Shown here: one piece after another, positions 1 through 41,750 of the stretch
Numbering within the stretch: position 1 is the first letter of the stretch
Layout of the letters: the number at the start of each line of letters is the position of its first letter
NCBI GenBank assembly: GCA_000002445.1
Contig: CH464491.1
Location: 4,320,001-4,384,000, forward strand
Length of the DNA stretch: 64,000 nt
Direction: 5' to 3'
Origin: Trypanosoma brucei
Lineage: Eukaryota
Program-made: the position numbers and the translations under genes
Notes under the pieces: generated by a model
Seen by the model: the letters and a program-made list of their open reading frames with translations, nothing else
Told to the model about the DNA's origin: nothing
Databases searched by the model: none

Positions 1-1659
1 GTACACAACACGCCCACATCGCGGATTTGCGTACTGCAGGGCTTGCATCAACTCCGACCGCAGGTAATGGAAAAGTTTGTTGACTCTCGGACAGACAGAC
101 ACAAACCGGTTCACCACAGCATTTCCCTCCCCCTCCTCCTCCCCCTCCATGGCACCACTAACACCTAATGCATAACGGGGCTTGCAACCGTCGGCGGTTG
201 TATCTGGGCAGCACAGTACATAATTGCAGTTGCCACGTAACCCCTCATGTACTTGACGCGGAGGGGCTCGTAGCAACACGTGACCCTCAACACCAGCGTG
301 ATAACCCGTGCTAAACTGCAATTCAACCGCGCCACTCCTCAAACAACCCTCTGCGCTGCTGTTGGCCGCGGGGACGTCTTCCTCATCTGCCCGAGCACTG
401 ACATGACACTTGCGGCTTGCCACATTGCTCGTACCCGAACCAACCACACAACCAACCTTACGGTTTGGAGACACTAATGAAATAACGACATATCCTACAC
501 TACTTTCCCCTCCTTCACTGGGATACGCCATGTAACTAGCGATGTCTTTACTGTAAAAACGCTCAGACATGCGGTACGATCGGCTAGACATGTCAAGAAT
601 AATCTGCGTATCAGCGACGGCACTAGTGACTCTCAACAGCAAAGGGATCAACACACCCAAAAGATCTGAATCAATAAGTGTATCAGCAGCCACCTGTCGC
701 TGCAACCAATACATGTGACCAATCGTCAAAGGTGAGCTCTTCATTACTTGGTGTACCCCACTCACCTCTGGGACGCATGATATCTCATCCTCCAGGAACG
801 ACGCCAAACTCGCCGCTTCACGAGAGGTGGTTTCCGCTCCCACCATGTCATCTTGCCGCTGCGCAACGACGCACTCATTAACCGAAACACCTGCAGGTTC
901 ATTAGGTGGTAGAGCGGAGGGAGAATTCGATGTGTTAAGAAGGGCCATTGGGTCGCAAGTGGATTGGCGGGGAAATAATTCTGCAGAAAAGAGCAGCGGA
1001 TGAGCGGGGTGTTGTGTGAACACGGCTCCGCGGCCCGAACTCTGAGCACTTTGTGCGTGCCGAAGCAACTGCCAGAGGGTCACAAAACGGACAAATGGAA
1101 AAGCGGAGTTCACAATGAGCAAAAGACCCGGTGGTCCCGTCATGATGTCAACAAGACGTTGGCCCTCTGCCCCCGTTACCAACCCCTGCCGCTCGTAATA
1201 TTCAGCGAAAAAACGGCGATGAGCATCTCGGGCTTCCTCCGCTCGTTCCTCATCCGACTCAATGTCCGCTTCCATAACATTCTCCACATCAACCTCCGTA
1301 TCCGACGTTAACGCCAGCTCCTCGAAAAAGTGACGGGCAAGTTGCATGGTGGAGACCGTCCGCTCCACCGCGTCGTCGGCGTCTTCCTGAGCTAAAAAAG
1401 CAGCCGCTTCATCATCATTAGCGAACGAGACGCCCTCCACGAAGCCACCGGCGTCACGATCAACAGGATTGGGAATTAAACGTACTGGACGGGCGTTGGT
1501 CCACTCACCGCGCAGTAACTCACGGCGGTCTTGCGGAGTCATCCGCCCGATATCGCCCCAACCATGACGTAGCGAGGCAGAGGGCATGTCAGTAATGGAA
1601 CGTGGGATTCGGCGACTTCCACCGCGTTGCAACAACATCAAATGAGTGGTACGGATCAT
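1..1659 (-). CDS. Hypothetical protein, N-terminal ~553 codons; the 3' end lies beyond the left window edge. Weak, unconfirmed resemblance to the N-terminal region of NOL1/NOP2/Sun RNA methyltransferases.
   Basis: Reverse-strand ATG at 1657-1659 opens a frame with no stop down to position 1 (hand-translated: MIRTTHLMLLQRGGSRRIPRS...RRFFAEYYERQGLV...LIPLLLRV...IILDM...). It is absent from the ORF track only because there is no in-window stop. GC-rich, coding-like composition contrasting with the flanks. The F-x-x-YY-x-x-Q and IPLLLxV...ILDM spacing recalls NSUN2/Trm4, but no AAPGSKT AdoMet motif follows ILDM. Confidence 0.55.
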   Translation of the reverse strand, partial: MIRTTHLMLLQRGGSRRIPRSITDMPSASLRHGWGDIGRMTPQDRRELLRGEWTNARPVRLIPNPVDRDAGGFVEGVSFANDDEAAAFLAQEDADDAVERTVSTMQLARHFFEELALTSDTEVDVENVMEADIESDEERAEEARDAHRRFFAEYYERQGLVTGAEGQRLVDIMTGPPGLLLIVNSAFPFVRFVTLWQLLRHAQSAQSSGRGAVFTQHPAHPLLFSAELFPRQSTCDPMALLNTSNSPSALPPNEPAGVSVNECVVAQRQDDMVGAETTSREAASLASFLEDEISCVPEVSGVHQVMKSSPLTIGHMYWLQRQVAADTLIDSDLLGVLIPLLLRVTSAVADTQIILDMSSRSYRMSERFYSKDIASYMAYPSEGGESSVGYVVISLVSPNRKVGCVVGSGTSNVASRKCHVSARADEEDVPAANSSAEGCLRSGAVELQFSTGYHAGVEGHVLLRAPPRQVHEGLRGNCNYVLCCPDTTADGCKPRYALGVSGAMEGEEEGEGNAVVNRFVSVCPRVNKLFHYLRSELMQALQYANPRCGRVVY

Positions 1660-1945
1660 TTTGTTACCTGCAGCAGCAGCAGCAGCAGTTATAGAACAAA
1701 AAAAAAGAAAAAGAGAAAGTACCTTCCCCCTCCCTCCCTCCCTTCCCCCTTGAAGAGAGGAAAAAAAAAAGAAAACTCCGGTACCTCTAAGCGTTTTGAA
1801 GCACGCTGCAGAGGGGGAGGAAACGAGGGGAATACTAACGAAACGTGTGTACCACCTCTGATATGGTTTTCAACTACTACTCAATGGACAGCGTAATGAA
1901 AGCAGAAAATTAAAGAAATTAAAGAAATAGCTGGACGAAAAACCT

Positions 1946-6423: not shown

Positions 6424-6428
<5 letters not shown>

Positions 6429-6471: not shown

Positions 6472-6472
<1 letters not shown>

Positions 6473-7323: not shown

Positions 7324-8242
7324 CAAGAAAAAAAAAAGAGGGGGAAAGGGAAAGCCAATCAATCAATAAATTAACAGTTAAAAATAATTATAAATAGTGA
7401 TTAAATAACAAAAAAAACAAAAAGAAACAGAAAATAAAAAGTTATATCATATCATATAATTTTATATAATAATGGTGGCGAAGACCCGGAGAAAAAAAAA
7501 CAAAAAAATTGAGAATGTGTCCAAAAAAGAAAAACCAAGAAAGGAAAGAAAAGGAAGGAATATCAAGTAAGGGAAACTTAAGTAAATAACACCTTCACTC
7601 ACCCACACCTTGAAGCACATCGAAGAGTCCAATAAACACATTAAATGCATAAATATAAATATAAAAATATATATACGTCTTTTGTTTTTTTTCTTCTTTC
7701 CTCTTTATTTGGTTGTTTGTTTATACGCTTACGTCCGTACACGCGCCTGTGTGAGGGTGTGTAATCTTTTTTTCTTTTTTTTAAAAAAATTATTCTTTCT
7801 TTCTCTTTCTCTTTCTCTCTCTCCCTTTCTTTTTCCCTACCCCCTCCTTTTAAACTTCTTTTTCTTTTTCTTTGTCTTATTGTTTTTGTTTTTGTCTTTG
7901 CTGTTGTTGTTGTTTTGTTGATTTTTTTTAAAAATTTTTTTCTTTATATTTATATTTACGTGTTTGTTGGACTCATATAAATATGTGTACATATATTTGG
8001 TGTGTGCTCGCATGTTTGCATGCATGCATGCGTGTGTTTGTGTTTGCGTGTAAATAACCCTTTTCCTTATTTTTCCTTCCTTCCTTTCTTTTTTTCTTTT
8101 TCTTTTCTATTCCAATTCTCATTTCTCTTAAAACTTCTCTGTTATTATTCTCGTCTTTTTTGTCTTTTGTCTTTTTCTTTTTTTTTTTAATTGGGCGCGT
8201 GTGTGTGTGGGGGTGGGGGGAAGTAAATCCAGGAAATTAAAA

Positions 8243-8245
<3 letters not shown>

Positions 8246-8282
<37 letters not shown>
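8246..8282. repeat. (TA)n microsatellite, ~18 units
   Basis: Uninterrupted tatata... run. Confidence 0.9.
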
Positions 8283-8283
<1 letters not shown>

Positions 8284-8370
8284 TTTTTTTTATTTTTCTT
8301 CTTTCGGTTTACTTTTTCGTCGTTTTTATTTCTTTTCGTTTCGTTTTCTCCTTACTTCCTCTGTTAACAA

Positions 8371-8470
8371 TAATAATGATGATAACAATAGTGACTATAA
8401 TAATAATAATAACAACAATATTAAAAATAATGGTAATAGTAATAACAATAATAATAATAATAGTAACAGT
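8371..8470. repeat. Compound (AAT)n/(AAC)n trinucleotide repeat block
   Basis: aataatgatgataacaatagtgactataataataataataacaacaat...aataataataatagtaacagtaat. Confidence 0.8.
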
Positions 8471-10204
8471 AATATAAGTCACACACACACAAAAAAAAAG
8501 ATTATAAAAGAAAAAAACAGAAAGGAGAGGAGAGGAGAAAAAAGGAAAGAAAAAGTCACACTACAAAAAAAAAAGAAAGGGGAAATAAAGAAGAGAGAGA
8601 GAGACAAAAATGAAAAAGGGTCGATCACCCGTGGGAGGAACGTGTAAATTAAATAATAATTGCCGTATCTTACAGATGTACATATGACACACACACAAAA
8701 AAAAAAAGAAAGTACAAAACAAAAATATATTTATATCAATTCTTTATTTATTTTAAATTTTTATTTTATTTCTACAAGAAAGGTCAACACAAGAGAATGG
8801 AGTAATCGTAACGAAAATGCTAAAATCTAAAAAAAAAATTCTCCCTCCCCTCCACACCATACCAAAACAACGAAGAAAAAAACTAAACTAAAACAACAAG
8901 AATAAAAATAAAAATAAAAAAAAAGATAAATTAAAAAAAATTTAAAAAAAACATAATAATAAAAAGACATGAAAAATCAGAAGGGAAGGAGGCAACACAC
9001 CAACAAGTAAATAAAATATGCCATAAATAAAATGTGATGTGGCCTCGGATTCCGCACGCTCACTAAATATAAATATTTATATATTTATTATTATTATATA
9101 TATATTTATATATTCTCTCATCAAACCCCTCCTCCACTTGCTTCTTTTTTTTTATTCTTTTTATTCCTTTCCTTTCTTCCTGCGTTATGGGATTACACCC
9201 GCATCTCTCACAAAAGAAAAAAGAAAAATAAAGAAAAAAAGAAACCCGACAACAACAACAAAAAAAACACACATTTCTCTGCCCGTGTTAATTCGGCACG
9301 CCTTTCACTCCCTCCAATTTCCACCCTCTTTGTTTCCTATAATATATTCATTTTATTTATTCATTTTATTTTATTTTTTGCCTATCCGTCCGTGTTCCTT
9401 TCTTTTCTTTTTTCTATTTTCTTATATTTCTTTTGTGTGGACTCCCGCACGCGAAGAGGGCACAAAATATTTCTCACTCGCCACAATCTCCAAACCCTCA
9501 AACTAAAGAGAAGGGAGGGGAAAAACAAAAAAAGTAGAGAAGTAAAACAAAAAGAAACCATCCCCCAAAGCGTCAGCTATCATATAAATAAATATATAAA
9601 TATATATAAATATATAAATATAAATAAATATATATTTATATAATTTCCTATTCCTTCTTTTAATCTTCTACAAAACTGAAAATGTACGTTTTTTTTTTTC
9701 CCTCCCCACACTTTTTTTGTTGTCTAATAATCATTTCGCTGCTTTACAGCTTCACTACATAATAAACAACAACAATATACTTCACAAACAACACAATAAC
9801 CAAAGAAAAGTAAATAGTAACAGACAAAACAAAACAAAACAAAAGCATCATTGGAACCCTTTCAAAGGTGGTCAGTTATTTTAATAAATTCATTCATTTA
9901 TTTATTTCATTTATTTTCCTTTCCTTTTTTTTTTTTACCCCTCATCTATTTCTTTTATTTTATTTTCTTCCTTTTTTTTTTATTCCCCCCTTTTTAATTC
10001 CTTTTTCATCCCTTGTTTAGTTTTTTGTCTTTCCTTTCCTTTTCCTCCTTCATTCCCTAATTGTTTCTGAAGTTGATCATGAACCCCATCAAAACAGGGA
10101 AATTGAGATGCACTTTTTTCTTCTTTTTTAAAAAACAAAACAAAACAAAAACAATAATTTAAAGAAAGAAGAAGAAAAACGTAAAGGAAGAAAAAAGAAG
10201 AAAA

Positions 10205-10221
10205 TGATAATGATGATTATA

Positions 10222-10252
<31 letters not shown>
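10205..10252. repeat. (ATA/ATG)n trinucleotide repeat
   Basis: gataatgatgattataataatgataatgataataataataataataat. Confidence 0.85.
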
Positions 10253-11353
10253 TATTCAAAAATGAAATAGGAGGAAAAGACACTAAACAAAAAAAAGTAA
10301 AGGAACTTGAAAAGTGAGATAAAACAATAAATAAAAGCAAAACGAAAAAAAAAACAAGAACAAAAGGACGAAAAAAAAATGGCAATGAAAGGGATTGGGA
10401 TGAAAAAGAAAAAAAGAAAAAACAAAAACAGAAACAAAACAATACAGTAAAAGATAATGATAATGATGAAGCGCTCGGCGTGTTAAAGTGCAACAATAAA
10501 AAAAAAACAAAAACGGTTCAGTGGACGGAAAAGTCGAAGGTTACTGGAAACAAAAAGCGTAGACGGGAAGGGGAAGAGAGAAGCAGAGTTAGAGGAAATA
10601 AATAAAACAAAACAAAAAAGTTTTTATATTCTTCTTTTATTATTATTATTATCTCCTTTACAATAATACTAATAATAAATAAAATAAATGAATAAAATGA
10701 TAACAACGGAGAAGAACGTAAAAGAGGAGCAACAAAGCGGAAGCAAACGAACAGACACACTGATGGAAAAATATGATGAAATATTTTTTGAAAAAAAAAA
10801 GGAAAAGAAAGGTAAAGTAAGATTGGGGGACTAAGCACACACACAAACAAACATGAATAAACATATAAAACTAAATATATAACCAAATATATAAATATTT
10901 ATGTGCTCACTCAATATCCCCCTTTATTTTGTCTTTTTCAGTATCATTATCATTATTTTATTTTATTTATTTATTTATTCTCCCCCTTCTTTTCCTTTTT
11001 TTTATATTTCCCATCTTATTTTTCTTTCTTCCATTTTGTTCGCTACATCATTTCATTTCACTCTTTACGTTATCTCTCTCCATCTCTTTCTCTCTCCTTC
11101 TCTCTCGTTGTTCTTCCTGCATCACAACTATTTTCAGTTTCTTTTTTTTTTGCTTTTTTTTGATTTTGTTGCTGTTGTTATTTTCTCTCCCATCTCCCTT
11201 TCTTTTTTTTTCTTTTAAAAAAAAAGCAAAAAAAAGTTTTTTTTTCCCCTTCCTCCAAATGATCCGATCAACGCACAAACGCACAAACACACACTTCGCT
11301 GTTGAATCATTCCCTCCCTCCCCAAAGAAAAAAAAACAAAAAACAAAAAGAAG

Positions 11354-11418
11354 CTCACTCACTCACTCACTCACTCACACGCACGCACACACACATATAT
11401 ATATATATATATATACAC
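11354..11418. repeat. Compound microsatellite (CTCA)6-(GCAC)2-(AC)n-(AT)n
   Basis: ctcactcactcactcactcactcacacgcacgcacacacacatatatatatatatatatat. Confidence 0.9.
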
Positions 11419-11771
11419 CATTCACATATTCAAACAAAAAACGAATGAAAACAAAACAAGAAAAAAAAGGTAAATAAAATTAAATTAAAGTAGGAAAAAA
11501 AACAAAAAAAATTGACGCCACAACAATTTGTTGAAGCAAACGAAGAGGGGAAAAATATGAAAAATGGACAAAGGAAAAGGGCAGCAGCAGCAGCAGCACC
11601 CGCTGCTGGTGCCACACACAAATTCACTCATTTGTTCAATCACTCATATCATTAAATACGTATATTATATATATCTACATATATGACAGAACACATTTAC
11701 GCAATAGTAATAGTAATAATAATAATAATTATTATTATAGTAATAATATATAGATATATTTACTTATGGAA

Positions 11772-11797
11772 ATATATATATATATATATATATATAT
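11772..11797. repeat. (AT)n microsatellite
   Basis: atatatatatatatatatatatatat. Confidence 0.85.
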
Positions 11798-14700
11798 CAA
11801 ACGCAGCAAGAAAGCGGATGGTATTTAGTATTGGAGCCATACCGCCTCATTCCTCAGGCTTCTCACCTCCTTTATTTTTTTCTTCTCTTCTCACTTGTGC
11901 CTCGTTTTTTCTTTCTTCTTTTCTTTTCTCTCAAGTTTGTTTTCTGCTGCTTACACAAAAATGGATGTAATGCGTATAAGCAACCGCACAACAAACCAAA
12001 CAAACAAACAAAAGAGTTAGAGGAAAGGTTACAAGTGATGATAATAATAATAATAACAATAAGGGAAGAAGAGAGACCCAAAAACAAAATAAAACAAAAC
12101 ATTGAGCAAATGGAAATAATAATAATAATATTATATAAATTATATATATATATATATATATACAATATAAATAAATATATATACATATATAAATATATAT
12201 AATTATAACAATAAAACAAGACGGAAAAACGCAGTGAAACATGAAATGTAGTTACAGAAAGAAAACCAAACAAGCAAACATATAAAAAAAAAGAAAAAAG
12301 AAAGAGAGGGGGAAAAGGAAATCAGAAGACACATCAACACTCCGCCAAAGTACGAAGAATACGGAGCATACAGATAATATATAAATATATATAAATATAC
12401 ATATGTATATAACATAATAGAAAGAACATAAAAACGAAAGAAAAAAAAACGACGGTCAATCACCAATCAAAACGTCAAATTGATCCCGAACGGAACAAAG
12501 TTGTGGGGAACGCGAAAACAAAAAAAAACACCCACAAAAAAGACGTGGCGGTGGTGGTGGTGGTGGCGGAAACTCAAAAACGAAAAAAAAAGGAAAAGAG
12601 TGAACCGAGCCGCAGGAGACAAATATCAGGACAAGAAAAAAAAAACACCAACCCACACATATGCCTAAAAGCGTCAAGGGAAGAAGTGGCCATCAGAACT
12701 GATAACAATAAAAAAAAAACAATTGATGAAAAGAAAAGTAAATGACAGATTTGACGACGACAACAACAATAACAAGTAAACAATAATAATGATCACCATT
12801 ATCATCATTTATATCATCACAATGCCACAACAACAAAAAAAAACAAAATCACGGAAACTCATCCCTTCTCTCTCTCTCCCCCTCCCACTCGCCTTTTGTT
12901 TCTTTTTGAACTTTATTGTCGCTGTTTCATTTATTTCTTCCTCTTGATTCGTATTTATTTATATAAAAGAAAAACCATTGCTTCCTCGGACTCCCACACG
13001 AAACAGCCTTTAAAACAAAACAAAAGAGCGCTAACAGAGAAAGTCAGAAGGCAAAGAAAGAAAGAAAAAACAAGTCAGGCACACAAATATGTAATTAAGT
13101 ATAAATTTATAAATATAAATCTCCACCACAACGCAAAAGATAAATATCAAGATTATATATATAAATAATATAGTTTTTACATATAATTTTAAATTAATTA
13201 TGGCGTAATGAGGGGACCTGAAATATCCAAAAACATTGAGAACGAAATCCACAGGAAAGTATACTGAAACCCAGTAGAGAAAGGGGAAAAGAAAGGAGGT
13301 AAAAAAAAAAAACACACACACTTACAACCAGAGTGTCAGAACCTTAAATATAATTAAATATGGTTTAATAGGGGGCAAATATAAGTAAATATAAGTAAAT
13401 ACATATAATACATATGCACCATATGTATAGATGTGTCATTATTAGCTAAAAGGCGGGAAATACACAATCACAAACACAATCACAATCACAATCACACACG
13501 CAATATAATAACAATAATGATGGTAATGGAAGAATTCATACGTAAATGTATGAAGGGACCATAACATGAAAAGAAAGAGAAAAGAAGGAGGAAGAAAAAC
13601 AAACAAATAAAAACGCAAAACATAATCAAAAAAAGGAAGGAGGTATTTTTCTTTTTCATCTTCGTGTCTTTACTGAATTTTTTTTAGATTGCTTTGATTC
13701 TTTAACCTTGTTTTTTTTACCTTATTCTTTGTACTCAGGAGGTGGGGACGGGGGGGGGATATCTCCCGCGAAGCAAATTGAATGATGATAATGATAATGA
13801 TGATAATGATATGGCAAAGCAATTAGTGCCGGGGTTGCGTGGGGCAAGTTTTAGAGGGATATGAGGAGAAGGAGAAAATAAAGAGGGGAAAGGGGGGAAA
13901 TGAAAACAGCAAACACAAACACAGGAGCCTATTTATGTATTCATTTTATTTGCTTATCCATTCATTCATTCATATTCAATCCTTCATTCGGTCGCAAAAG
14001 AGAGGTGCACGCATGCGCTAATGTATTCAACATGTTGGTGCAAAATATATCAAGCGAAAGAAAAATAGTACAAAAAATGAGGGAGGAACTAAAGGAAAAC
14101 AGAAATGGGCTGGCACGCGAGTTTTTCGAATAGGGCAAAGTGTAAAGGGAAAGGGAAAGGAACAGACAGGTACGCGCGCGCCCATGCATTTAAATCACGC
14201 GCACAGGAGCCCTCCACCCGCCTCATATTATTATTTTTTTCTTTTTTTTAATCACCCCATCCACCCACACCCCAAAGACGAGGGGAAATTTCCTTGTATT
14301 TTTTTCTTTTTTCCTTTCCTTCTTCTTTTTTTTTTCTCTTATCTCCTCTCCTCTTTTCCTTCTTTCACCCTCTCCTCTCCCCTCCCCTGTCACGCCCTGT
14401 AATTGTCAATGCCATTATTATCACATTGTCATTAGCTCATTCAGTTATTTTATTTCACTATTGGTTAGGTTTGATATTTTGTTATTCTTTTTTTAAATTT
14501 TTTTTTGCTTTCCCTCTTCCCCTCCCCCCTCTCCCCTCTCCGTTTCTTTCTCTTTCTTTACTTTACTCTCCTTTCCTTCTTTTTGAAACTCCTTTTTTTT
14601 AAATATAATTTTTTCTTTCTTTTTCTTTGCTTTGTTTTTGTTTTTTCAGAGGGAAAGTTGGATCAAACTTTTTTTCTCTGTGACTGGCGTTGTTTGTGTT

Positions 14701-16180
14701 GTTCTATTATCATTATCATTATTATAATCATTCATTTTCATTTTTTCCCCTTCCTCTTTTTTTTGTCTTTTTTCTTCTTTTTTTTCCTTTTTCTTCTGTT
14801 ACCTTTTTATTATTTTATTTTTTTTGTTATTTTTTATTTTATTTTATTTTATTTTTTGAGCGTTACTGTCCTTTTTTCTTTGTTGTTGCTGGGTTCCAAA
14901 AATTCGGCGAGTACTCCAACAACAATAACAATAAATAACAACACGGAGGGAAGTGAGAAGGAAGCCACACACATATATGTATAAACATAAGCACAAACGC
15001 ACGCAAACACACAAAAACGAACAAAAAAAAAGCAAAGGAAGGAAGGAAAGAGACACTAAAATGTCTGAACTTCCACAAGTGACAAAACAAATACGGGAAC
15101 GGAAAAACGAAAGAAAAAAAAAGGAAAGAGAAAACAAAAACAAAATAAAATAATAAAATAGTAAAAGATACGCACAATGAAAAAAAAAAAGTACAACATA
15201 CATACTTTTATAACTCCCTCCACAAATGCACATGACCACTAGCCACGACCACGTGCACACAAAAGAAAAAAAAAGGAAAAGGGAAAAGGAACAAGGAAGA
15301 ACCAGAGGGAAAAGGGAAAAAAAAAGAACAACAACACACTTTTCCAATGTGTTTCTCATAATATATATATATATATTCATATTTATATTTATTTATTTAT
15401 ACCTACAAATATATAAATATAGGTGTGTCTGTGCATTTGTGTCTATGTTCATATATGTGTTCATTCATTCATTTCCCCCTTGTTTTTCCTTCCTTTCCTT
15501 TCCTTTCCTTTCTTCTCCCTTTTTTTCTTTTTCCTCCTCCCCCTCTTCTGTTAGTCTATTTCAAATATTAGGTTTTTGGGTTTGTCCTTCCCCTATTTCT
15601 TCCCTCGCTTCCACAGCTCGTTGGAAACATGCGGTCTCACCATTTTGTATTGGTCATCAGTATTTTACTTCGTATGGTGTGTCGCAGCCTCTTTCGTTTT
15701 GATCATTTCACTTATATCGAGTCTTTCTTTTTGATGTGTGTATGTGTGCGTGTGTGCATGAGTTCGATTCTTCTCTCCCATTCGACGGGAATGTATGGGC
15801 TCAGTCATCTTTTCTTTTCCTTTTTTTTCGTGATTACTTTTTCCTTTCGTCTTCATGCTTCAATTTATGACCCATACATACACATAAACAAACAAACACA
15901 CACACACACACACACGGACACATGATTTGCTCCGCCTAAAGCGCTACATCGACATCACTTTACTTCTTCTCTTCGCTGTTTCCACGCTTTGCTCTCTCTC
16001 TCTTTTTCTCTCTCGATCTCTCTTTTTCAATCCTACGACTGCTCCAAATACTTCAACCGTTTTCTTCGCTAACCGCTAGTTTCTTTTCTTCTGATCGTTC
16101 CTTTTCACGTCATGCATTTCCCCCCCCCCCAACACACACACACATTCTTCCACTTACCATCACCTGCTTTCAGTTGACTT

Positions 16181-17809
16181 TTACACATATGTAAGCAACA
16201 GCGGCGAGATGACGTAGTCGGAGGCGGAACTGCGTTGGTTAACAGGCTGCCGCGACACCTCAGGTCCCGGGAGCTGTGAAGCCTCCGGGTGCTGCTGCCG
16301 CTGCGTAAAGTATGGAGAAGAAGGGCTTAATGGCATCGCCGGCATCTCCGCCGGAGAGTTGTTCGTATATGAAGTCGGTCGCGAGGTGTAGACGGGCTCA
16401 AACGAATACCCCTGAGACGCATTCAACACACGAGATTGTTGTTGTTGTTGTAAGTGGGGCGGATGATGGTGGTGGTGGTGGTGATGATGATGCGTTTGCT
16501 GTTGTTGTTGTTGCTGCTGAAATGAGTTGTGGTGATGTTTGTAAGACGGGCCCGGTGGCACTACGAGTGGACCTCTACCTTGTTGCATTGGGCCACAACT
16601 ACCGAAGGAAACAGGTCCCGCTGCATGTTGTTGGTGCAGCGGCAGGTTGTTGGTCATATAACCACTGGAACCGCCATGCGGAGATCCCGCCTGTTGATGC
16701 TGTTGCCGATAGCCACCGCGGCTCTGGTACGGGTGCCCGCCCATGTGTTGGGAATGCCCACTTAGGCCGCCGTGGGGATGGGGGTGGGAACGATGCATCT
16801 GCTGAAGCTGTTGTGGGTGAAGGTGGCCGTGGCCTCCACCGCCTCCGTAACCACCCCTGTAGGCCGAGTTGTATTGCTGCCGCTGCGACCGCATCGAGTG
16901 GCCTTGAGACGGCATTTGGGGGGAACGCGTGTTCAAATGAACACGGTGAATAAAGTTACACAAACTTCCACGCCCACACCTTTCGCGTTCGTAATGCTTG
17001 CAAAACCGGAGATATTTCGTGGAGTCACTGTGTTGAGCCTCCTCGCTGCCCTTCGTACGGTAGACTTGCTCTGAAGGCACTTGCACCGGGTTCGCTGCTC
17101 CGCCTCGCAAAGAGTGACCCGCGTTGATGTAAAAAACTGAGCCTGGTTCATGTCGCTCGTATGGTGCTTCTTCCAATAAGGCAACAGGTGTGGACCAGTG
17201 AACCAGATTGACAGTCACAGGCAAGTCACCGTCACGAGGTTCTGCAAAGGTGTGCCGACTGTGGATGAAGTCACAACGGTCCCCGTGGGCACACGAGGCA
17301 TTGGTGGAAAAGGATTTGCAAAGGTATAGTGCGTAACTCGGCTCCTTTGTACCTCTGTTTCGTGACAAATAGTTTTTCGACCCAGAAGTAGTCTCGATGA
17401 ATTCGGACGGGATACACAGCGCTTTGTTCTTGTCAGCACTCAGCACGTGGAAGCGGCGGTCGTGCTGACCCGACTCATTGGCATCGATATTATCCCCATC
17501 AGTACCCTTGTCAGGGGCCACTAATTCTGTTGGCGCCTCGAGTGGTTCCTTCTGCGGTTTGCTGCTACTGCACCTACTGTTGCTCCCGCTCCCAGGAAGT
17601 ACCTTGGTGAAACAACTTTCAGGTCGATCCGTGTTAGGCAGCACAGGGGAAAGAATGTCTAACCCCGCCTGCTGCTCCTGTGGCGAGCCCAAAGAGTCCT
17701 TCGCTTCACTCATTCTCTGCTCGCGTGTTCCCTCTTTCTTTTGCACTCTTGCTGTCACTCTTTTGATTCCACGGCTTCGAACACACACACACTCTCTCTC
17801 TACCGTCAC
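16181..17809 (-). CDS. CCCH-type zinc-finger RNA-binding protein with poly-Q and poly-H tracts (start probably the internal ATG at 17713)
   Basis: Two C-x7/8-C-x5-C-x3-H fingers (CKSFSTNASCAHGDRCDFIH; CKHYERERCGRGSLCNFIH). Q/H/G/Y-rich low-complexity C-terminal half (QQQQQQQQTHHHHHHHHHHPPHLQQQQQ). The first 32 codons of the track ORF run through a (CA)n/(CT)n tract, so MSEAKDSLG at 17713 is the more plausible start. Confidence 0.8.
   Translation of the reverse strand: MTVERECVCVRSRGIKRVTARVQKKEGTREQRMSEAKDSLGSPQEQQAGLDILSPVLPNTDRPESCFTKVLPGSGSNSRCSSSKPQKEPLEAPTELVAPDKGTDGDNIDANESGQHDRRFHVLSADKNKALCIPSEFIETTSGSKNYLSRNRGTKEPSYALYLCKSFSTNASCAHGDRCDFIHSRHTFAEPRDGDLPVTVNLVHWSTPVALLEEAPYERHEPGSVFYINAGHSLRGGAANPVQVPSEQVYRTKGSEEAQHSDSTKYLRFCKHYERERCGRGSLCNFIHRVHLNTRSPQMPSQGHSMRSQRQQYNSAYRGGYGGGGGHGHLHPQQLQQMHRSHPHPHGGLSGHSQHMGGHPYQSRGGYRQQHQQAGSPHGGSSGYMTNNLPLHQQHAAGPVSFGSCGPMQQGRGPLVVPPGPSYKHHHNSFQQQQQQQQTHHHHHHHHHHPPHLQQQQQSRVLNASQGYSFEPVYTSRPTSYTNNSPAEMPAMPLSPSSPYFTQRQQHPEASQLPGPEVSRQPVNQRSSASDYVISPLLLTYV
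16438..16518 (-). repeat. Coding trinucleotide repeats, mRNA-sense (CAA/CAG)n-(CAC/CAT)n-(CAG/CAA)n, encoding Q8-T-H10-PP-H-L-Q5
   Basis: Plus strand gttgttgttgttgta...ggtggtggtggtggtgatgatgatg...gttgttgttgttgctgctg lying inside the CCCH protein CDS. Confidence 0.9.
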
Positions 17810-31607: not shown

Positions 31608-31874
31608 AAATAATGATCACTGTGTTAGCAGGTTAGAAAAAAGAGAAAGTGGATGTTGAAATAAAATACCCCCATATCCTTTAACTCTCTCTTCCTTCTC
31701 CGCATACTATCCACAATAATGCTCATAAGCGGATTTATTCAGCTCCGCACGTACGGGGAAGGAGGTGGAACGATTACGTACACCTCCCCGCACTCTTACA
31801 AAATCTTTCCCCTCTTTATTACCGCAGGTTCATTATCTGAAACGGCAACCCTTCCGTCAGCACCCACAACACTT

Positions 31875-31885
31875 CCCCCCCCCCC
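31875..31885 (-). repeat. G11 homopolymer (mRNA sense), ~270 nt upstream of the start of the C2HC gene
   Basis: ccccccccccc on plus strand. Confidence 0.9.
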
Positions 31886-32861
31886 CGCCTCGCCTCGCCA
31901 TTCCTCCTCCTCCTTTCCCTTCATAAGCACATACAAGCAGATATGCATTTGCACATATATAAATAATTAAGTACTTCATCACATAGGGATGAGAAGGAAT
32001 AAGCAGAAAAATGAGGGCAAATAATCAGGGAATGAGCAGCCACTTATCATTTTAGCTCCATCACACTTTCCTGCGTAATGCGAAGGGAGAAGACCGCCGT
32101 GGATCCGCACGGAGACGATACAAGCAGTGAAAAAAGAAATAATTATAAAAACAACAATAATAATAACAATAATATCGATCAGCATGGGGGGGAGGTAATA
32201 CGCGAAACGATAAACGCTTTACTCAAAACAATTATGACAATAATAACAAAAAAGGTAAAACTTTTTTTTTAAAGGTGACAAATACGAGGAGAGAATCAGA
32301 GGAAAAGCGGAATCACGAGACAAATACGAGGCCGACTGGCTTCCCTCAATATCATGCGCCCCCGTCATTTCAAAAAATTGGTTTTCCCTCTGGCGCCATC
32401 TCTTCTTTTTTTTTACGTTTTTTTTTTTTCGATTATGGAAAGATCGATGTGTACACCCATCGCTTCTTTCCTTTTCAGTCCTTCTTATTTGGCTCCCCCC
32501 TCCTCCTCCTTTTCTTTCGTACAACACTTCGTAGCGCACGCATACATACACAAAAAAAAACATGTACGACCGCACAATAAAAGAAAGATATATTTAATTT
32601 AGACTTTAAAATCTCATGCTGCGTTCCCACATCCCTCCGTCAAAAGTTTTCCCATTGGCATCGCATCCGCCACATGAGATTCGTGCTTTAGTATCCACGC
32701 ACACCTTTTTACTCAACCCCCAAATGAATTAACATTTTTATTTTTTTTAAAAAAAGAGGACAGAAAAGGTAAGATAAAAGATGGAAAGAAAAGAAAAGAA
32801 AAACAAAAAAAAAATACAAACAGTTAAATAAAACGTTAAAACGATGCCCCAATCCAAAGAC

Positions 32862-33083
32862 TTACTTCGCCTTCCTCGCAAGAGACTTGGGAACATATGG
32901 TGTAGCACCACCCATCATTACAACTTCCATTTCCTCATCACTGAAGGCTCGGGGACGGAAGTGGGCCGGCAAGTCATTTATTGAGTCCAAAATGCTACTG
33001 GTGCTGCCGCTGGTGGCAGCTCTTATACCGCTGCTGTTGCTGCCGCTGGTGCTGCTGCTTGGGGACGTGCCGCTACCACCCAT
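32862..33083 (-). CDS. Candidate small protein (73 aa) with an N-myristoylation-like N-terminus (MGGSGTSP...)
   Basis: In-frame ATG at 33081-33083 within ORF 32862..33149 gives MGGSGTSPSSSTSGSNSSGIRAATSGSTSSILDSINDLPAHFRPRAFSDEEMEVVMMGGATPYVPKSLARKAK. GC-rich and coding-like, in the same orientation as the array. The M-G-x-x-x-S/T start fits the N-myristoylation consensus. Confidence 0.35.
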   Translation of the reverse strand: MGGSGTSPSSSTSGSNSSGIRAATSGSTSSILDSINDLPAHFRPRAFSDEEMEVVMMGGATPYVPKSLARKAK

Positions 33084-33601
33084 CTTGAGGCGGGCGTAAG
33101 TGAAGCGAATAAGTGGGTTGCGTCGACACAAATGCGTGGGGAGAAACATACTTCTTCAGTTGAAATAAAAATAGAGAAAGAAAAAAGAAAAGAAAAGAAA
33201 AGAAAAGACTCTACACCTTCTGGTTTCTTCTTATGCCTTTGATTTTTGGCTTCGGTGTCGGTTGCTGCTGTTAGAATTTTTCGCACCGGGCACTCACCAA
33301 AAAGAACTGGATATGCTTCGCTTTGCTTTGAAGTAAAAAGAAAAAAAAACAAACATAATACGAAGACGACAGCGGACACACAAATGCACATTGACATATA
33401 TATGCATTATATAAGCCATATTGCTCTGCTTGCTTGAAAGACCACAAATATCTTACGAACGGTAACAACCACTGGGACCGCAAGAGTAGCCGGAGAGGCT
33501 CACACACACACACACACACACACACATGCGCACGTGCTGAGTTGTATAACCTTCAAATTCCAACAAAACTGGAGATGAAACAAAATGTCGGCCTGCGCCG
33601 C

Positions 33602-38046: not shown

Positions 38047-39422
38047 GGTGGTCGGTACGAATTAGACAGGTACGTATTCTACCAGAGTTATACACTAGGC
38101 TTCCCCGCTACTTTATTTTCCTTTAATTTTATTTTGCTCCGGTTACCCTTCACCTCTCTTTTTTTCTTCTTGACTTCTTTCGGATTATTCCGCTGATGTT
38201 GAAGGACAGCGGTTGCCACACGTGCCTCTTTTAAGCGGTGTTTAGTAAGGTGGAGCAGGCTTTCAGTCGAACCCTCCCCCTTTTATTATATTTTTCGCGT
38301 ATCCCCTGGGTTTCGCAGGTGAGAAGTGAATATATTTATATATGTTCCTTAAGTTATTTCTATGAACCAGCGCCACGCTATTGTAGGGGGAAACAAAACA
38401 GGAAAAAACAAAGGAAAACAGTGGGCAGAAACGGTAACAACTAGCACCAATTAAAGAAAATTCGCAGTGTTTGTAGTGTTCACCACACACGCACACACAC
38501 AGCCTTTAGGGCACAGATACGAATATGCGCACCTCATGCAGTACTGCTTTACATTTCCCTCCGCGTAACGGCGGATGCAATTCGGGAAATAGACGTGAGT
38601 TACACTCGCCCATCAGGTCACAAACGGGATGGTAATAACAATAACAGCGAGGGCGTTCATAGGGGGAAAAAAAAAATCTCAGCTGGTCCATGTAACCCAT
38701 GGAACCATATAGCATTCCCTCACGCACTGGGAACGAGATGATGCAAAGAGAAAGAGACGAAAAAGAAGGAAAGAGAAAGAAAAATAAGAACGAACAAAGT
38801 GTTCACAGGAGGAAGATGATGGGTAAAGAAGAAATAAAAGGGCCTCTACACCCATGTGATACAGGGAAGGATGCACGGCCGTTTCTCCTTCTCTTAAACA
38901 ATGCCACTGAAATCCAGCCTGCCGCATGCAACGAATATACCGGCACCGGATGTAAGGGCAGGCTGCAGAGGTAGCACACAAAAGGAGGGACCCGCACATG
39001 TATTCAAAGTGTACAATTGTTGACTGCACGGAACCACCTACAACCAAAAAAGGGGCGTATTTGTATATATATATATATATATACTGTGTATTTATGAGTG
39101 TAATGATCATTTGTGCGATTGCATTCCGCAAGATCAGGAAAAGTGGCGAGCATACTGTTAAGCACAAATTGAGTGCAGCTCATGCACACAGCAAACAAAC
39201 AAGATCGCATATAATTAAAAACAAAGATCGATCCAATCTATGTGCATTACTTTTTCAAACAAGTGTGTTAGTAAGTTCTACGTGGATCCACGAAGGCGCC
39301 TCCTCACACCCCGAGCCGCATTGTCAACTCCCCTCGCGGCGACTCCCTTTCACGCTACGTGTTGTGGAAAGAGTACTGCAGGAAATCCTCTCTCTATGGG
39401 CTGGTAAATCTATGAATTCTTC

Positions 39423-41750
39423 TCATACGGACACTGCCGACTTCGAAGAAGTAGACTCGAAGTCAGTGCCGTACTCACTATCTTTATCATCATGTTCTCT
39501 ATCACTATCCTCTTTCTCAGTGCCACTTTTACCCTTACTATCGCTGTCACTCTTTCCTTCAGAAGTCTCTTTGGATTCACTGTCTTTACCTTCCTTCGTC
39601 CCCTCATGTGATTCTGATTCGCTGCTAGAACCCTCAGTGCTTTGCCGTCGGCTCCCCTTCTCGCCCGAGTCTACTTCCCCGTCGCTTCCAGACTTGGAAG
39701 GTTCATCCTTTTCATCGTTATCACGCGCTTCCCCATCAGGTTCCGATTTTTTGCTGGCTTCACCAGCTGCGGCCGCAGCAGTGGCGGCATTATCAGCGCC
39801 CGCAGCGTTATCATCATCACTTGCATCGGCGCAGCCCTGTATGATAGCAGATAATGTGCCTCCATCTACACCACTCTCTTTGAGAAGCCGTAATATCTCC
39901 TTTTCCGTCTCCGCACGCACCTTGGCGGCACTATGTAGGTGAACCGGCTCCACAAATATGGGTGGTATTTGAACTACACGCGACAGCATTTCGTTAAGCT
40001 GCTCTGCCGCTTCACGCTCGGCCTCGCGGCCTAGCCGACGCAACTCCGTTACCTTTTTGCGGATAACATCATCAGTGTTAACTTGGGTGCTCTTCAAATA
40101 CTCCTTCAGTCGAGCATTCACCCGTTTCTGCCGCTGATATGCCTCCTTTAACGCAGCGGTCTCCTCACTCCTCTTGTCTTGGTATTGCTTAGCTTCAGCT
40201 GCTGTGATGTATCTTTCAAACACAGCTTGGGTACGCATCGCATGTGCTCGTGTCCCTTTAGGAACTGATAACCCCCTCTTATCCTCAGCCTCACCAGTGC
40301 CTCCAGAACTGCCTTCCTTCCCCTCCGGTGGCTTTGGTACCGAACGTTTCCGGCGGGCTGGTCGGGTCGCCGATCCCGGGCGCTGCTGCTTTTTCCGATG
40401 CAGTGACCGACCCCTAATAACTTCTTCTTTGCCTGAGACCGTTAATTTGAATGGTTCCACCTGTGTTGGTTGACGCTTGAGTTTCCTCTCTGCAAGTGCA
40501 AGCCGCTCCTCAGCCCACAATGCCTCGAAGTTGGGCACTCCCCCGCGGATTTTGGGTTTAAACGTCAAGTTCGGGTTGCGTTTTGCCGATGTACTTCTTG
40601 AACGCCTTTTGGGAGTCTTATCTTCTTTGCTTTCTGAAACTCCTCCGCTGACCTTTGGTTTAGACAAGGGCGCCATCACAAGTACACCGGTGGGTGGCGA
40701 TGATGATGGAACCGCCGAAGAAGGTGGAGGGGCTGTTGTCGTATGCTGGGAAGAAACAGTTACAACCGGACCGCTCACCGGCACGATGTTTGCCGCTCTG
40801 TCGCCCTGTTGTTGTACCTGCTGCTGTTGTTGCCGCTGATGTAGTTGTAGGAACTCAACCGGAGTCATCCCGAACCACGGTTGTGTACGGCCTGTTTGCT
40901 CTGCTGCAGCAACGCGTTGAGACTCCTCTGCCTTCACCTCCTCCATCTGATGCACAGCCCGTTGCTTAATGCGCTCAACTCGTATCTGTTCGTGCTCCTC
41001 AATGGCGGGCCATAACTTGAGAGCTACTTCAACCGGGACGTCGCGGATCTCTGACACCTGGCGGCAATCCCTTGCATTATGACCGCGACTATAATCCGAT
41101 TCCGACCCCCGCTGGCGGCGCGCACCCATGACCTCACGAACGTTACGCAAACCAGACACGCACAACTGCATGAACTCTTTTTCCTCCCGAATTCGTTCAG
41201 CCTTTTCCGCAGCGAGAGCTTCTACCATGACACGCCGTTGTCGCCACTCCTCTACCATGAGATCATACTTATTCATGTACGTGGAAGGCGGTACGGGATT
41301 TGACTTGAAGCGGCGGTTCAACTCGCGCTGTTCTTCTTGCTCCCGCTTCAATCGGTCTTCTTCCATGCGACGCGCATGTATGCCCCGCGGCCTCCTCAAT
41401 TCGCGCGCTTCGAAGGAAAATGGTTGCACGTTCCGCAATTTCTCCATGCGACGTTCCTGGTAATCACGAAAGTTGTTGAGGGCACTAAAGTACCGCTGCA
41501 TCGTTCTATGGGCCTCGCGCCGATGGCGCCTGCGTATCTCATCCAAACGCTCGACTGGGGAAATGGCGCGGGTGTTGTGAAAATCGGCAGTTTGAGATTG
41601 AAAGGTATTGGCATCGACGGGTTCCGGCATCTGTAACGTTTCGGGCGTTGGGTGCACAGCGGACAACTCCTTCTCGAGCAACTCCTGCTGGTGCCTGAGG
41701 TCATGAAGCTTCAACAAACTCACCATCTCTCCGTCCACCTCCGCCTGCAT
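39423..41750 (-). CDS. Charged coiled-coil protein with acidic Ser-rich C-terminus; possible FAM161/TPX2-like microtubule-binding motifs
   Basis: 775 aa, R/E/K/Q-rich heptad-like N-terminal half. PFSFEAREL and FKSNPVPPSTY segments. C-terminal ~150 aa is S/D/E/K-rich (SDSDSKGKSGTEKEDSDREHDDKDSEYGTD). Confidence 0.6.
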   Translation of the reverse strand: MQAEVDGEMVSLLKLHDLRHQQELLEKELSAVHPTPETLQMPEPVDANTFQSQTADFHNTRAISPVERLDEIRRRHRREAHRTMQRYFSALNNFRDYQERRMEKLRNVQPFSFEARELRRPRGIHARRMEEDRLKREQEEQRELNRRFKSNPVPPSTYMNKYDLMVEEWRQRRVMVEALAAEKAERIREEKEFMQLCVSGLRNVREVMGARRQRGSESDYSRGHNARDCRQVSEIRDVPVEVALKLWPAIEEHEQIRVERIKQRAVHQMEEVKAEESQRVAAAEQTGRTQPWFGMTPVEFLQLHQRQQQQQVQQQGDRAANIVPVSGPVVTVSSQHTTTAPPPSSAVPSSSPPTGVLVMAPLSKPKVSGGVSESKEDKTPKRRSRSTSAKRNPNLTFKPKIRGGVPNFEALWAEERLALAERKLKRQPTQVEPFKLTVSGKEEVIRGRSLHRKKQQRPGSATRPARRKRSVPKPPEGKEGSSGGTGEAEDKRGLSVPKGTRAHAMRTQAVFERYITAAEAKQYQDKRSEETAALKEAYQRQKRVNARLKEYLKSTQVNTDDVIRKKVTELRRLGREAEREAAEQLNEMLSRVVQIPPIFVEPVHLHSAAKVRAETEKEILRLLKESGVDGGTLSAIIQGCADASDDDNAAGADNAATAAAAAGEASKKSEPDGEARDNDEKDEPSKSGSDGEVDSGEKGSRRQSTEGSSSESESHEGTKEGKDSESKETSEGKSDSDSKGKSGTEKEDSDREHDDKDSEYGTDFESTSSKSAVSV

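What the first reader, a model, noticed from the sequence alone, without database searches (positions are those of the whole stretch)
32862..33083. Candidate 73-aa N-myristoylated small protein in a 2 kb spacer
The spacer between the C2HC gene and the next hypothetical gene contains a GC-rich, coding-like minus-strand ORF starting MGGSGTSPSSS..., with Gly2 and Ser6 fitting the N-myristoyltransferase consensus. It is followed by a Ser/Thr-rich tract and an acidic C-terminus (FSDEEMEVVMM). Kinetoplastids encode several small myristoylated membrane- or flagellum-targeted proteins of this size, and such ORFs commonly escape annotation.
Basis: partly seen in the sequence, partly recalled or inferred. 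Interest (0 to 1): 0.5.

Follow-up and report, generated by a model that had tools for sequence, protein, structure and literature searches.

The report
Trypanosome Kgd4/MRPS36 gene, not myristoylated
The small ORF is a real, conserved gene. It is the Trypanosoma brucei copy of Kgd4/MRPS36, a small mitochondrial adaptor known from yeast and mammals that ties the E3 enzyme to the 2-oxoglutarate dehydrogenase complex; it starts 22 codons further upstream, so the "Gly2" is internal and the myristoylation idea fails.

Summary
The 73-codon minus-strand ORF at 32862..33083 exists as described. The same frame stays open up to an ATG at 33149, giving 95 aa. This 95-aa ORF is already listed in Ericson et al. 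2014 (PMC3942054) as Tb11.NT.212_1. It sits on its own 1631-nt trans-spliced mRNA (window 33325->31695), whose 176-nt 5'UTR has no AUG, and it carries a CDD "DUF2638" hit, which I take from memory to be the old name of PF10937.

I confirmed the following:
- It matches Pfam PF10937 (Kgd4-YMR31) above threshold, with the same score as human MRPS36.
- It has both family motifs: N-terminal PLIRF (E3-binding half) and C-terminal LPxxFRPxxFSxEEMExxxxGG (E2o/core-binding half).
- Orthologues lie in the same syntenic slot in T. b. gambiense, T. vivax, T. theileri, T. cruzi, Leishmania and an unnamed kinetoplastid-like assembly.
- Purifying selection acts on both motif blocks, including the 22 residues upstream of "MGG".
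- The internal Met-Gly is brucei-specific; other species have K-S-G or K-N-G there.

N-myristoylation is therefore not supported. The best explanation is the E3-recruiting fourth subunit of mitochondrial OGDH. Its localisation and binding partners are inferred, not shown. Novelty is low: the ORF is catalogued but uncharacterised in trypanosomes, and it is missing from the NCBI/UniProt-derived protein sets searched.

The parts
32862..33149 (-). Complete CDS, 95 codons plus stop. T. brucei Kgd4/MRPS36 orthologue, identical to Tb11.NT.212_1.
   Evidence: ORF list. Identical sequence in Ericson 2014 suppl. file 1. PF10937 hit of 25.8 bits against a cutoff of 22. Syntenic orthologues.
33084..33149 (-). 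N-terminal 22 residues (MFLPTHLCRRNPLIRFTYARLK). Basic, with no acidic residue. Inferred mitochondrial import information plus the E3-binding region.
   Evidence: Conserved in all kinetoplastid orthologues. pN 0.24-0.45 against pS 0.57-1.09. In yeast, deleting the N-terminal domain required an added MTS for import, and that domain binds E3.
33102..33116 (-). P-L-I-R-F motif (residues 12-16), the N-terminal signature of the Kgd4/MRPS36 family.
   Evidence: P and F columns are invariant in the PF10937-positive set A3. hhalign of N-terminal blocks only: probability 87%, E 4e-6. Chance of the motif within 30 residues is about 1e-4.
33081..33083 (-). It is followed by Gly24.
   Evidence: It is the second AUG of the mRNA. 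The Met is not conserved outside the brucei group.
32994..33083 (-). Ser/Thr/Gly-rich variable linker (residues 23-52), encoded by an imperfect (AGC)n-like repeat.
   Evidence: TRF repeat at 32998-33059. 36-nt in-frame deletion in T. b. gambiense. pN is about equal to pS. Low pLDDT.
32898..32993 (-). C-terminal family motif SILDSINDLPAHFRPRAFSDEEMEVVMMGGATP (residues 53-84). Inferred E2o / E1-E2 core-binding region.
   Evidence: The Pfam alignment covers profile positions 66-116. hhalign of A2 against A3: 99.2%, E 3.5e-19. Only confident helix is residues 71-78. pN 0.08-0.36 against pS >=0.71.
32865..32897 (-). Basic tail YVPKSLARKAK (residues 85-95). This extension is conserved in the kinetoplastid sequences; the human and yeast proteins end 1-3 residues after the GG.
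   Evidence: Alignments A2 and A3.
33150..33325 (-). 5'UTR of mRNA Tb11.NT.212 (176 nt). It contains no AUG and includes a (CTTTT)n tract at 33183-33208.
   Evidence: ORF offset [177-461] in Ericson 2014, mapped onto the window. The three other listed ORFs of that transcript land exactly on window ORFs at 32896, 32563 and 32185. No ATG in the UTR. Repeat found.
33326..33354 (-). Trans-splice acceptor: a polypyrimidine tract (about 33331-33354) followed by the AG at 33326-33327, immediately 5' of the mapped transcript start.
   Evidence: Sequence read directly, together with the transcript coordinates.
31695..32861 (-). 3'UTR of the same mRNA (about 1,167 nt). It fills the rest of the 'spacer' and ends about 150 nt upstream of the C2HC ATG.
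   Evidence: Transcript length of 1631 nt, mapped. No Rfam match.

Best explanation
The locus encodes the T. brucei orthologue of Kgd4/MRPS36, the small fourth subunit ('E4') of the mitochondrial 2-oxoglutarate dehydrogenase complex (OGDH).

Proposed mechanism:
1. The gene lies in the sense orientation of a minus-strand polycistronic unit.
2. It is processed into its own trans-spliced mRNA, Tb11.NT.212. The spliced-leader acceptor AG is at 33326-33327, the 5'UTR is 176 nt without any AUG, and the 3'UTR is about 1.17 kb.
3. Translation starts at the first AUG (33149) and gives a 95-aa, largely disordered protein.
4. The basic, acid-free N-terminus directs import into the mitochondrion (inferred).
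5. The N-terminal PLIRF motif binds the E3 (dihydrolipoamide dehydrogenase) dimer. The C-terminal LPxxFRPxxFSxEEMExxMMGG helix motif binds the E2o core. The Ser/Thr-rich linker tethers the two.
6. E3 is thereby recruited to an E2o that, as in other eukaryotes, is expected to lack a peripheral-subunit-binding domain.

Shown here: the ORF, its transcript context, family membership by sequence, both motifs, synteny, and purifying selection.
Inferred from yeast and mammalian work: localisation, binding partners and function.
For: Family membership:
- PF10937 Kgd4-YMR31 hit above the gathering score for the T. brucei protein (25.8 bits against 22) and for all five syntenic orthologues first recovered (best E 2.3e-6).
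Yeast Kgd4, also from memory, gets 104.9 bits.
- Profile-profile comparison of the kinetoplastid set against a PF10937-positive set: 99.2% probability, E 3.5e-19 for the C-terminal motif.
- The N-terminal PLIRF block aligns separately at 87% probability, E 4e-6.
- An HMM search of 1.84 billion representatives returned 87 relatives, mostly 70-125 aa (12 of them from 188 to 971 aa). Most carry both motifs at the same relative positions.

Conservation:
- The order hypothetical gene -> small ORF -> zf-C2HC (followed by RNase PH where the locus extends that far) is kept in T. b. gambiense, T. cruzi, T. theileri, T. vivax, Leishmania and a Logan assembly.
- pN is well below pS in residues 2-22 and 53-95, while the linker looks near-neutral.
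- The three T. b. brucei / T. b. gambiense substitutions clear of the indel are synonymous, and the indel is in frame.

Transcript:
- Identical 95-aa ORF at positions 177-461 of the 1631-nt transcript Tb11.NT.212, with a DUF2638 CDD hit.
- The mapped 5' end is preceded by a polypyrimidine tract plus AG, and the 5'UTR has no AUG.

Independent functional link:
- In other eukaryotes the same module is fused to a lipoyl domain.

Function in yeast and mammals:
- The N-terminus binds E3 and the C-terminus binds the E1-E2 core or E2o (PMC4214781; PMC9974300).

Structure:
- The AF2 model is mostly coil with one helix at residues 71-78, as expected for a motif-based adaptor.
Against: - No peptide from this ORF appeared in three T. 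brucei mass-spectrometry data sets, including a mitochondrial proteome.
- The Pfam score is only about 4 bits above threshold, and the HMMER alignment covers only the C-terminal half.
- There is no experimental evidence in any trypanosomatid for localisation or for association with OGDH. No paper in the searchable library links Kgd4 or MRPS36 to trypanosomatids.
- I could not fetch T. brucei E2o to check that it lacks a PSBD.
- No solved structure of a relative was found by sequence.
Confidence: 0.85

Rival explanations
1. One reading: translation starts at the internal AUG (33083). This gives a 73-aa cytosolic protein whose Gly2 is N-myristoylated, targeting it to membrane or flagellum.
For: The string M-G-G-S-G-T fits the loose NMT pattern G-x-x-x-S/T (read directly from the sequence). 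The internal AUG has A at -3 and G at +4, which matches part of the T. brucei Kozak consensus gaaAanAUGgCc (PMC13069569). A pyrimidine-rich stretch followed by AG lies immediately 5' of this AUG, so an alternative trans-splice site cannot be excluded.
Against: It is the second in-frame AUG of the mapped mRNA. The first AUG also has -3A and no AUG precedes it. Met23-Gly24 is absent in every orthologue outside the brucei group. The 22 residues it would omit are conserved, selected, and contain the E3-binding motif of the family. The family is mitochondrial-matrix, where NMT does not act (established knowledge).
Confidence: 0.03
2. The ORF is a chance reading frame inside UTR or intergenic sequence of the neighbouring genes and is not translated.
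For: Other-frame ORFs of 101-124 aa occur in the same spacer. No MS peptides were found in three data sets. The Ser-rich part is a simple (AGC)n-like repeat.
Against: The frame, both motifs and the syntenic position are conserved from Trypanosoma to Leishmania, at saturated synonymous divergence but low non-synonymous divergence. The Pfam match is above threshold in all orthologues. The ORF sits on a separate trans-spliced mRNA and begins at its first AUG.
Confidence: 0.02
3. It is a true Kgd4/MRPS36-family protein but works elsewhere in trypanosomes. One option is a mitoribosomal small-subunit protein, as the T. melophagium annotation 'Ribosomal protein S36' implies. Another is a partner of the E2o pool reported to act in kinetoplast-DNA inheritance rather than in the TCA cycle.
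For: The T. melophagium orthologue is named 'Ribosomal protein S36' by its source. From my own knowledge, T. brucei alpha-KDE2 has been reported to have a second, kDNA-related role (Sykes and Hajduk 2013); I did not check this here. The kinetoplastid-specific basic tail has no counterpart in the yeast or human proteins.
Against: The ribosomal assignment was shown to be a co-sedimentation artefact in yeast and mammals. Kgd4 co-purifies with KGDH and not with mitoribosomal proteins (PMC4214781; PMC9974300). Both OGDH-binding motifs are conserved in the kinetoplastid proteins. Lipoyl-domain fusions tie the module to 2-oxoacid dehydrogenases.
Confidence: 0.08

Closest known systems
Saccharomyces cerevisiae Kgd4 (Ymr31), PF10937 founder
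   Same: A small protein with an N-terminal P-[LM]-I-[RK]-F motif near the start and a C-terminal LPxRFR...hExxEhExIxxGG motif, joined by a poorly conserved linker. In yeast the N-terminal half binds E3 (Lpd1) and the C-terminal half binds the Kgd1-Kgd2 core.
   Different: 95 aa against 123 aa. The linker is Ser/Thr/Gly-rich and repeat-encoded. The T. brucei protein continues 15 residues past the GG (ATPYVPKSLARKAK), whereas yeast ends 'GGAW'. The Pfam score is much lower (25.8 against 104.9 bits), because the model matches fungal-type sequences far better.
Human/mammalian MRPS36 (OGDH 'E4' subunit)
   Same: Same Pfam score (25.8 bits). VKPHTPLIRFP aligns with LCRRNPLIRFT. LPQKYRRKLVSQEEMEFIQRGG aligns with LPAHFRPRAFSDEEMEVVMMGG. 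Cross-linking places the N-terminus on E3 and the C-terminus on E2o.
   Different: The human protein ends right after the GG. The trypanosome protein has a shorter N-terminal lead-in (11 against 20 residues before the motif).
Peripheral-subunit-binding domain (PSBD) of bacterial E2o, and E3BP of eukaryotic PDH
   Same: Functional analogue: a device that recruits E3 to an E2 core. MRPS36 is proposed to replace the PSBD missing from eukaryotic E2o.
   Different: No sequence or fold relationship. The PSBD is a folded helical domain inside E2, whereas Kgd4 is a separate, mostly disordered polypeptide.
Small N-myristoylated kinetoplastid proteins (for example Leishmania SMP-1 and HASPB, and calflagins; recalled from memory)
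   Same: Small size and an M-G-x-x-x-S/T string.
   Different: Here the Met-Gly is residue 23-24 of the conserved ORF, is lineage-specific, and is preceded by conserved coding sequence. No homology to those families was detected.

Membership tests
Kgd4/MRPS36 (Pfam PF10937) | Sequence match to the family HMM at or above the curated gathering score | tested here: met
   25.8 bits against a cutoff of 22, E 3.6e-5, for both the 73-aa and the 95-aa forms. All 5 syntenic orthologues match. A CDD DUF2638 hit with E 1.9e-6 was reported in 2014.
Kgd4/MRPS36 (Pfam PF10937) | C-terminal motif LPxxFR(x)3-4 h-S/T-x-E-E-h-E-x-h-x-x-G-G (core/E2o-binding half) | tested here: met
   hhalign of A2 against A3: 99.2%, E 3.5e-19 over 33 columns. 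L60, P61, E73, G80 and G81 are invariant in the kinetoplastid set.
Kgd4/MRPS36 (Pfam PF10937) | N-terminal P-[LM]-I-[RK]-F motif within about 30 residues of the start (E3-binding half) | tested here: met
   PLIRF at residues 12-16. It aligns to human PLIRF and yeast PMIKF (hhalign of N-terminal blocks: 87%, E 4e-6; chance about 1e-4). It is present in most of the 87 HMM relatives.
Kgd4/MRPS36 (Pfam PF10937) | Small (about 80-125 aa), largely disordered two-motif adaptor with a variable linker | tested here: met
   95 aa. AF2 mean pLDDT is 62.7, with helices only at residues 71-78 and 88-91. The linker varies in length and evolves near-neutrally.
Kgd4/MRPS36 (Pfam PF10937) | Mitochondrial matrix localisation | not testable with these tools
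   Only indirect evidence: the first 22 residues have 5 Arg/Lys plus 1 His and no Asp/Glu in T. brucei, and the pattern is similar in all orthologues. No peptide was found in the Panigrahi mitochondrial proteome.
Kgd4/MRPS36 (Pfam PF10937) | Physical association with E2o (or the E1o-E2o core) and E3, and a requirement for stable E3 incorporation into OGDH | not testable with these tools
   Known for yeast and mammals. No trypanosomatid data were found.
Kgd4/MRPS36 (Pfam PF10937) | Partner E2o lacks a peripheral-subunit-binding domain | not tested
N-myristoylated proteins (NMT substrates) | Gly immediately follows the initiator Met of the translated product | tested here: not met
   The first AUG of the mapped mRNA is 33149, and the Gly is residue 24.
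N-myristoylated proteins (NMT substrates) | Met-Gly start conserved in orthologues | tested here: not met
   T. vivax has RKSGD, T. theileri KKSGV, T. cruzi KNGAS and Leishmania AKSCG at this position. None has a Met there.
N-myristoylated proteins (NMT substrates) | G-x-x-x-S/T substrate pattern after the Met | tested here: met
   M-G-G-S-G-T-S, read directly from the sequence. This is relevant only to a hypothetical 73-aa product. No dedicated predictor was available.
Mitoribosomal small-subunit proteins ('mS36') | Stable component of the mitochondrial ribosome | not testable with these tools
   The literature reassigns the family to OGDH, and mitoribosomal proteins do not co-purify with Kgd4. 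No PDB chain related by sequence was found.

The most novel reading that the evidence does not exclude
In the T. brucei lineage only, the newly acquired internal Met23-Gly24 might be used as an alternative start. This could happen through alternative trans-splicing at the pyrimidine-rich stretch plus AG that directly precedes AUG 33083, or through leaky scanning. The result would be a second, cytosolic, N-myristoylated 73-aa isoform. It would lack the import and E3-binding N-terminus but keep the E2o-binding motif. That would make this a dual-targeted or regulatory variant of an OGDH subunit, comparable to the trypanosome proteins whose mitochondrial and cytosolic forms arise by alternative trans-splicing (recalled from memory). 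Nothing in my data supports this beyond the sequence strings. Nothing strictly excludes it either.
Probability: 0.03. Interest if true: 0.55.

Novelty: already known. Interest (0 to 1): 0.15.

Why it matters
The value is mainly in annotation. The T. brucei OGDH complex very probably has a fourth subunit that is missing from the NCBI/UniProt-derived protein sets searched and from several trypanosome genome annotations. In one genome it is mislabelled 'Ribosomal protein S36'.

Anyone modelling or purifying trypanosome OGDH should include it. This applies especially to work on the reported second, kDNA-related role of its E2 subunit (my recollection, not checked here).

The presence of both binding motifs in kinetoplastids (Discoba) also supports the view that the Kgd4 adaptor dates back to early eukaryotes rather than to fungi and animals only.

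It does not open a new question. The myristoylation idea, which carried the finding's interest, is not supported.

Tried and rejected
- A single-sequence search of the 73-aa ORF against 5.8 billion proteins found nothing, because the sequence is low-complexity and the index is word-based. The profile of syntenic orthologues was needed.
- Exact-sequence look-ups of the 95-aa ORF, the 73-aa ORF, the C2HC neighbour and the T. congolense neighbour all returned 'not on record'. T. congolense, the closest outgroup for the Met-Gly question, therefore could not be examined.
- PDB sequence searches with the single protein and with the profile gave only chance hits with E >= 0.45.
- The AF2 model has mean pLDDT 62.7 and pTM 0.22. 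That is too low for a meaningful fold search, so none was run.
- Rfam found no RNA family in the spacer or anywhere in the window. A non-coding RNA reading was dropped.
- The Vasquez 2014 ribosome-profiling supplements do not contain the peptide sequence. Parsons et al. 2015 (ribosome profiling and SL mapping re-annotation) is not held in the library. I therefore could not get Ribo-seq evidence or a current TriTrypDB gene ID.
- I checked whether the E3 gene lies nearby. Ten of the 13 larger window ORFs not already assigned from the syntenic loci were Pfam-scanned; none is a 2-oxoacid dehydrogenase component.
- dN/dS ratios could mostly not be computed because synonymous sites are saturated. 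I report pN against pS instead.

Full report
**1. What is in the sequence.**
On the minus strand an ORF reads MGGSGTSPSSS...KSLARKAK from 33083 to the stop at 32862-32864. This matches the finding. It lies in the 2,054-bp gap between a C2HC zinc-finger gene (ATG 31547; PF13913) and an upstream 607-aa hypothetical gene (stop 33602). The full ORF is therefore 95 aa: MFLPTHLCRRNPLIRFTYARLK followed by the 73 residues. 'FSDEEMEVVMM' is not the C-terminus, because 16 more residues follow and the end is basic. The CDS has GC 0.55 (GC3 0.60) against 0.38 and 0.40 in its flanks. ORF length by itself is unremarkable, since the same spacer has other-frame ORFs of 101-124 aa.

**2. Organism and neighbourhood.**
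The upstream neighbour is 99% identical to a T. brucei gambiense DAL972 protein, and its T. congolense orthologue is TCIL3000_11_16540. The window is therefore T. brucei chromosome 11. All ORFs of at least 250 aa in the window, except one at 38998..39942 (+) that overlaps a longer minus-strand ORF, are on the minus strand. That indicates one polycistronic unit, and the small ORF is in the sense orientation.

**3. Family assignment.**
- Both the 73-aa and the 95-aa forms hit Pfam PF10937 (Kgd4-YMR31, 'alpha-ketoglutarate dehydrogenase component 4') at 25.8 bits, above the curated cutoff of 22.
Yeast Kgd4, also from memory, scores 104.9 bits. The trypanosome protein is thus as good a member by this model as the human one.
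- A profile of kinetoplastid orthologues against a PF10937-positive alignment gives hhalign probability 99.2% and E 3.5e-19 over SILDSINDLPAHFRPRAFSDEEMEVVMMGGATP.
- The N-terminal blocks alone align LCRRNPLIRFT with human VKPHTPLIRFP at 87% probability and E 4e-6. The chance of such a motif within 30 residues is about 1e-4.
- An exhaustive HMM search of 1.84 billion representatives returned 87 relatives, mostly 70-125 aa. Most have P[LMS]I[RKQ]F near the N-terminus and ExExxxxGG near the C-terminus.

**4. Conservation and selection.**
- The gene order hypothetical -> spacer -> zf-C2HC -> RNase PH -> RRM is kept in T. b. gambiense, T. cruzi (two assemblies), T. theileri and T. vivax.
- tblastn finds the small ORF in that spacer on the same strand in each: 83, 91, 82 and 79 aa.
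- A profile search then recovered annotated orthologues. These are a T. cruzi YC6 hypothetical protein (PF10937), a T. melophagium 'Ribosomal protein S36', T. grayi DQ04_01701100 (numbered next to the neighbour's orthologue DQ04_01701110) and a 98-aa Leishmania sp. Ghana protein (PF10937).
- The Leishmania gene and an unnamed Logan assembly show the same synteny.
- Every orthologue that is complete at its N-terminus starts 11 or 12 residues before the P-x-I-x-F motif.
- The T. brucei Met23-Gly24 aligns to K-S-G, K-N-G or K-S-C elsewhere, with no Met.
- Synonymous sites are saturated (pS 0.57-1.09). pN is 0.24-0.45 in residues 2-22 and 0.08-0.36 in residues 53-95. The linker shows pN about equal to pS.
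- Between T. b. brucei and T. b. gambiense, the three substitutions clear of the indel are synonymous. The one indel is 36 nt, in frame, and lies within an (AGC)n-like repeat.

**5. Transcript evidence from the literature.**
- Ericson et al. 2014 (PMC3942054) list 'Tb11.NT.212_1 [177-461]' with exactly this 95-aa sequence.
- Their tables give a 1631-nt transcript, no MS peptides in three data sets, no TM segment or signal peptide, genome-BLAST conservation in T. congolense, T. vivax and Leishmania, and a CDD hit to the DUF2638 superfamily with E 1.9e-6. From memory, DUF2638 is the earlier name of PF10937; I did not verify this.
- Mapping the offsets puts the mRNA at 33325->31695. The three other ORFs listed for that transcript land exactly on window ORFs (32896, 32563, 32185).
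- The 5' end is immediately preceded by AG (33326-33327) and a polypyrimidine tract. This is the expected trans-splice acceptor.
- The 176-nt 5'UTR contains no ATG.
- The first AUG has A at -3, the main feature of the T. brucei Kozak consensus gaaAanAUGgCc (PMC13069569).
- The whole 'spacer' is therefore one mRNA, and 33149 is its first AUG.

**6. Mechanism.**
In yeast, Kgd4 co-purifies with KGDH and not with the mitoribosome. Its N-terminal domain binds E3 (Lpd1) and its C-terminal domain binds the Kgd1-Kgd2 core. An N-terminal deletion needed an added MTS for import (PMC4214781). In mammals, cross-linking places the MRPS36 N-terminus on E3 and its C-terminus on E2o. The protein is proposed to replace the PSBD that eukaryotic E2o lacks (PMC9974300).

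The T. brucei protein has both motifs, an acid-free basic N-terminus and a flexible linker. Its AF2 model is coil with a single confident helix over DEEMEVVM. I therefore infer a mitochondrial E3-to-E2o tether in OGDH. Localisation and binding are inferred, not shown. An independent hint is that in other eukaryotes the same module is fused behind a lipoyl domain.

**7. The myristoylation hypothesis.**
The M-G-x-x-x-T string is real. However, it is internal to the predicted product and specific to the brucei lineage. A start there would delete the conserved, selected N-terminal motif. The family is also a matrix family. I give this hypothesis about 3%, kept alive only by the theoretical possibility of an alternative trans-splice site at the pyrimidine-rich stretch plus AG just 5' of AUG 33083.

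**8. Novelty and score.**
The ORF, its conservation and its domain hit were tabulated in 2014, and orthologues carry PF10937 or 'S36' labels in some genomes. It is nevertheless missing from the NCBI/UniProt-derived protein sets searched for T. brucei and from several annotations. No searchable paper discusses Kgd4 or MRPS36 in trypanosomatids. This is an ordinary, useful annotation fix rather than a discovery. I rate it already known, with interest 0.15.

Noticed in passing
Proteins P0053, P0054, P0061, P0063, P0078, P0094, P0102, P0105; locus L008 3564-4232: In unnamed eukaryotes, a set of 188-327-aa proteins fuses an N-terminal lipoyl domain (PF00364) to a C-terminal Kgd4 module (P[LM]I[RQH]F ... 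EExExxxxGG). For 5 of the 8, PF10937 scores above threshold. In L008 a 38-aa lipoyl exon lies 114 nt upstream of the Kgd4-like piece P0020, which suggests an intron-containing fusion gene. This looks like an 'E3BP-style' arrangement for OGDH. I do not know of a description of it.
   Followed up: partly
window 32998-33059 (imperfect GCT/AGC repeat); L001 8330-8581: T. b. gambiense carries a 36-nt in-frame deletion (12 aa) in the repeat-encoded Ser-rich linker relative to the window. The three other substitutions in the CDS are synonymous. Linker length appears free to vary, which fits a flexible tether.
   Followed up: yes
L001 8857-9204 (-), equivalent to the window + strand within about 32220-32580: The T. 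b. gambiense DAL972 annotation calls a 115-aa ORF on the opposite strand, inside what is the 3'UTR of the Kgd4 mRNA, while missing the real Kgd4 ORF. It is probably a spurious gene model.
   Followed up: partly
window ~2,000-16,000: An AT-rich stretch of about 13 kb (GC 0.26-0.36 per kb, against about 0.5 in genes). It has no stop-free run longer than 201 codons on either strand, no large tandem repeats and no Rfam match. Minus-strand genes flank it on both sides (1..1869 and 16181..17809). That is unusually long for an intergenic region inside a polycistronic unit.
   Followed up: partly
window 33183-33208 (AAAAG x5 on +, i.e. CTTTT x5 on the mRNA strand), then AGs at 33153-33158: A second strong polypyrimidine tract followed by AG dinucleotides sits inside the mapped 5'UTR, a few nt before the start codon. 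It could be an alternative trans-splice acceptor giving a very short 5'UTR. Either site leaves 33149 as the first AUG.
   Followed up: no
window 32865-32897 (residues 85-95); alignment A2: The kinetoplastid Kgd4 proteins share a basic extension after the family's terminal GG (ATPYVPKSLxRKKK). The human and yeast proteins lack it and some other relatives carry Lys-rich tails. Its role is unknown.
   Followed up: no
P0011 (T. melophagium): The orthologue is annotated 'Ribosomal protein S36'. This historical name has been superseded by the reassignment of the family to OGDH.
   Followed up: yes
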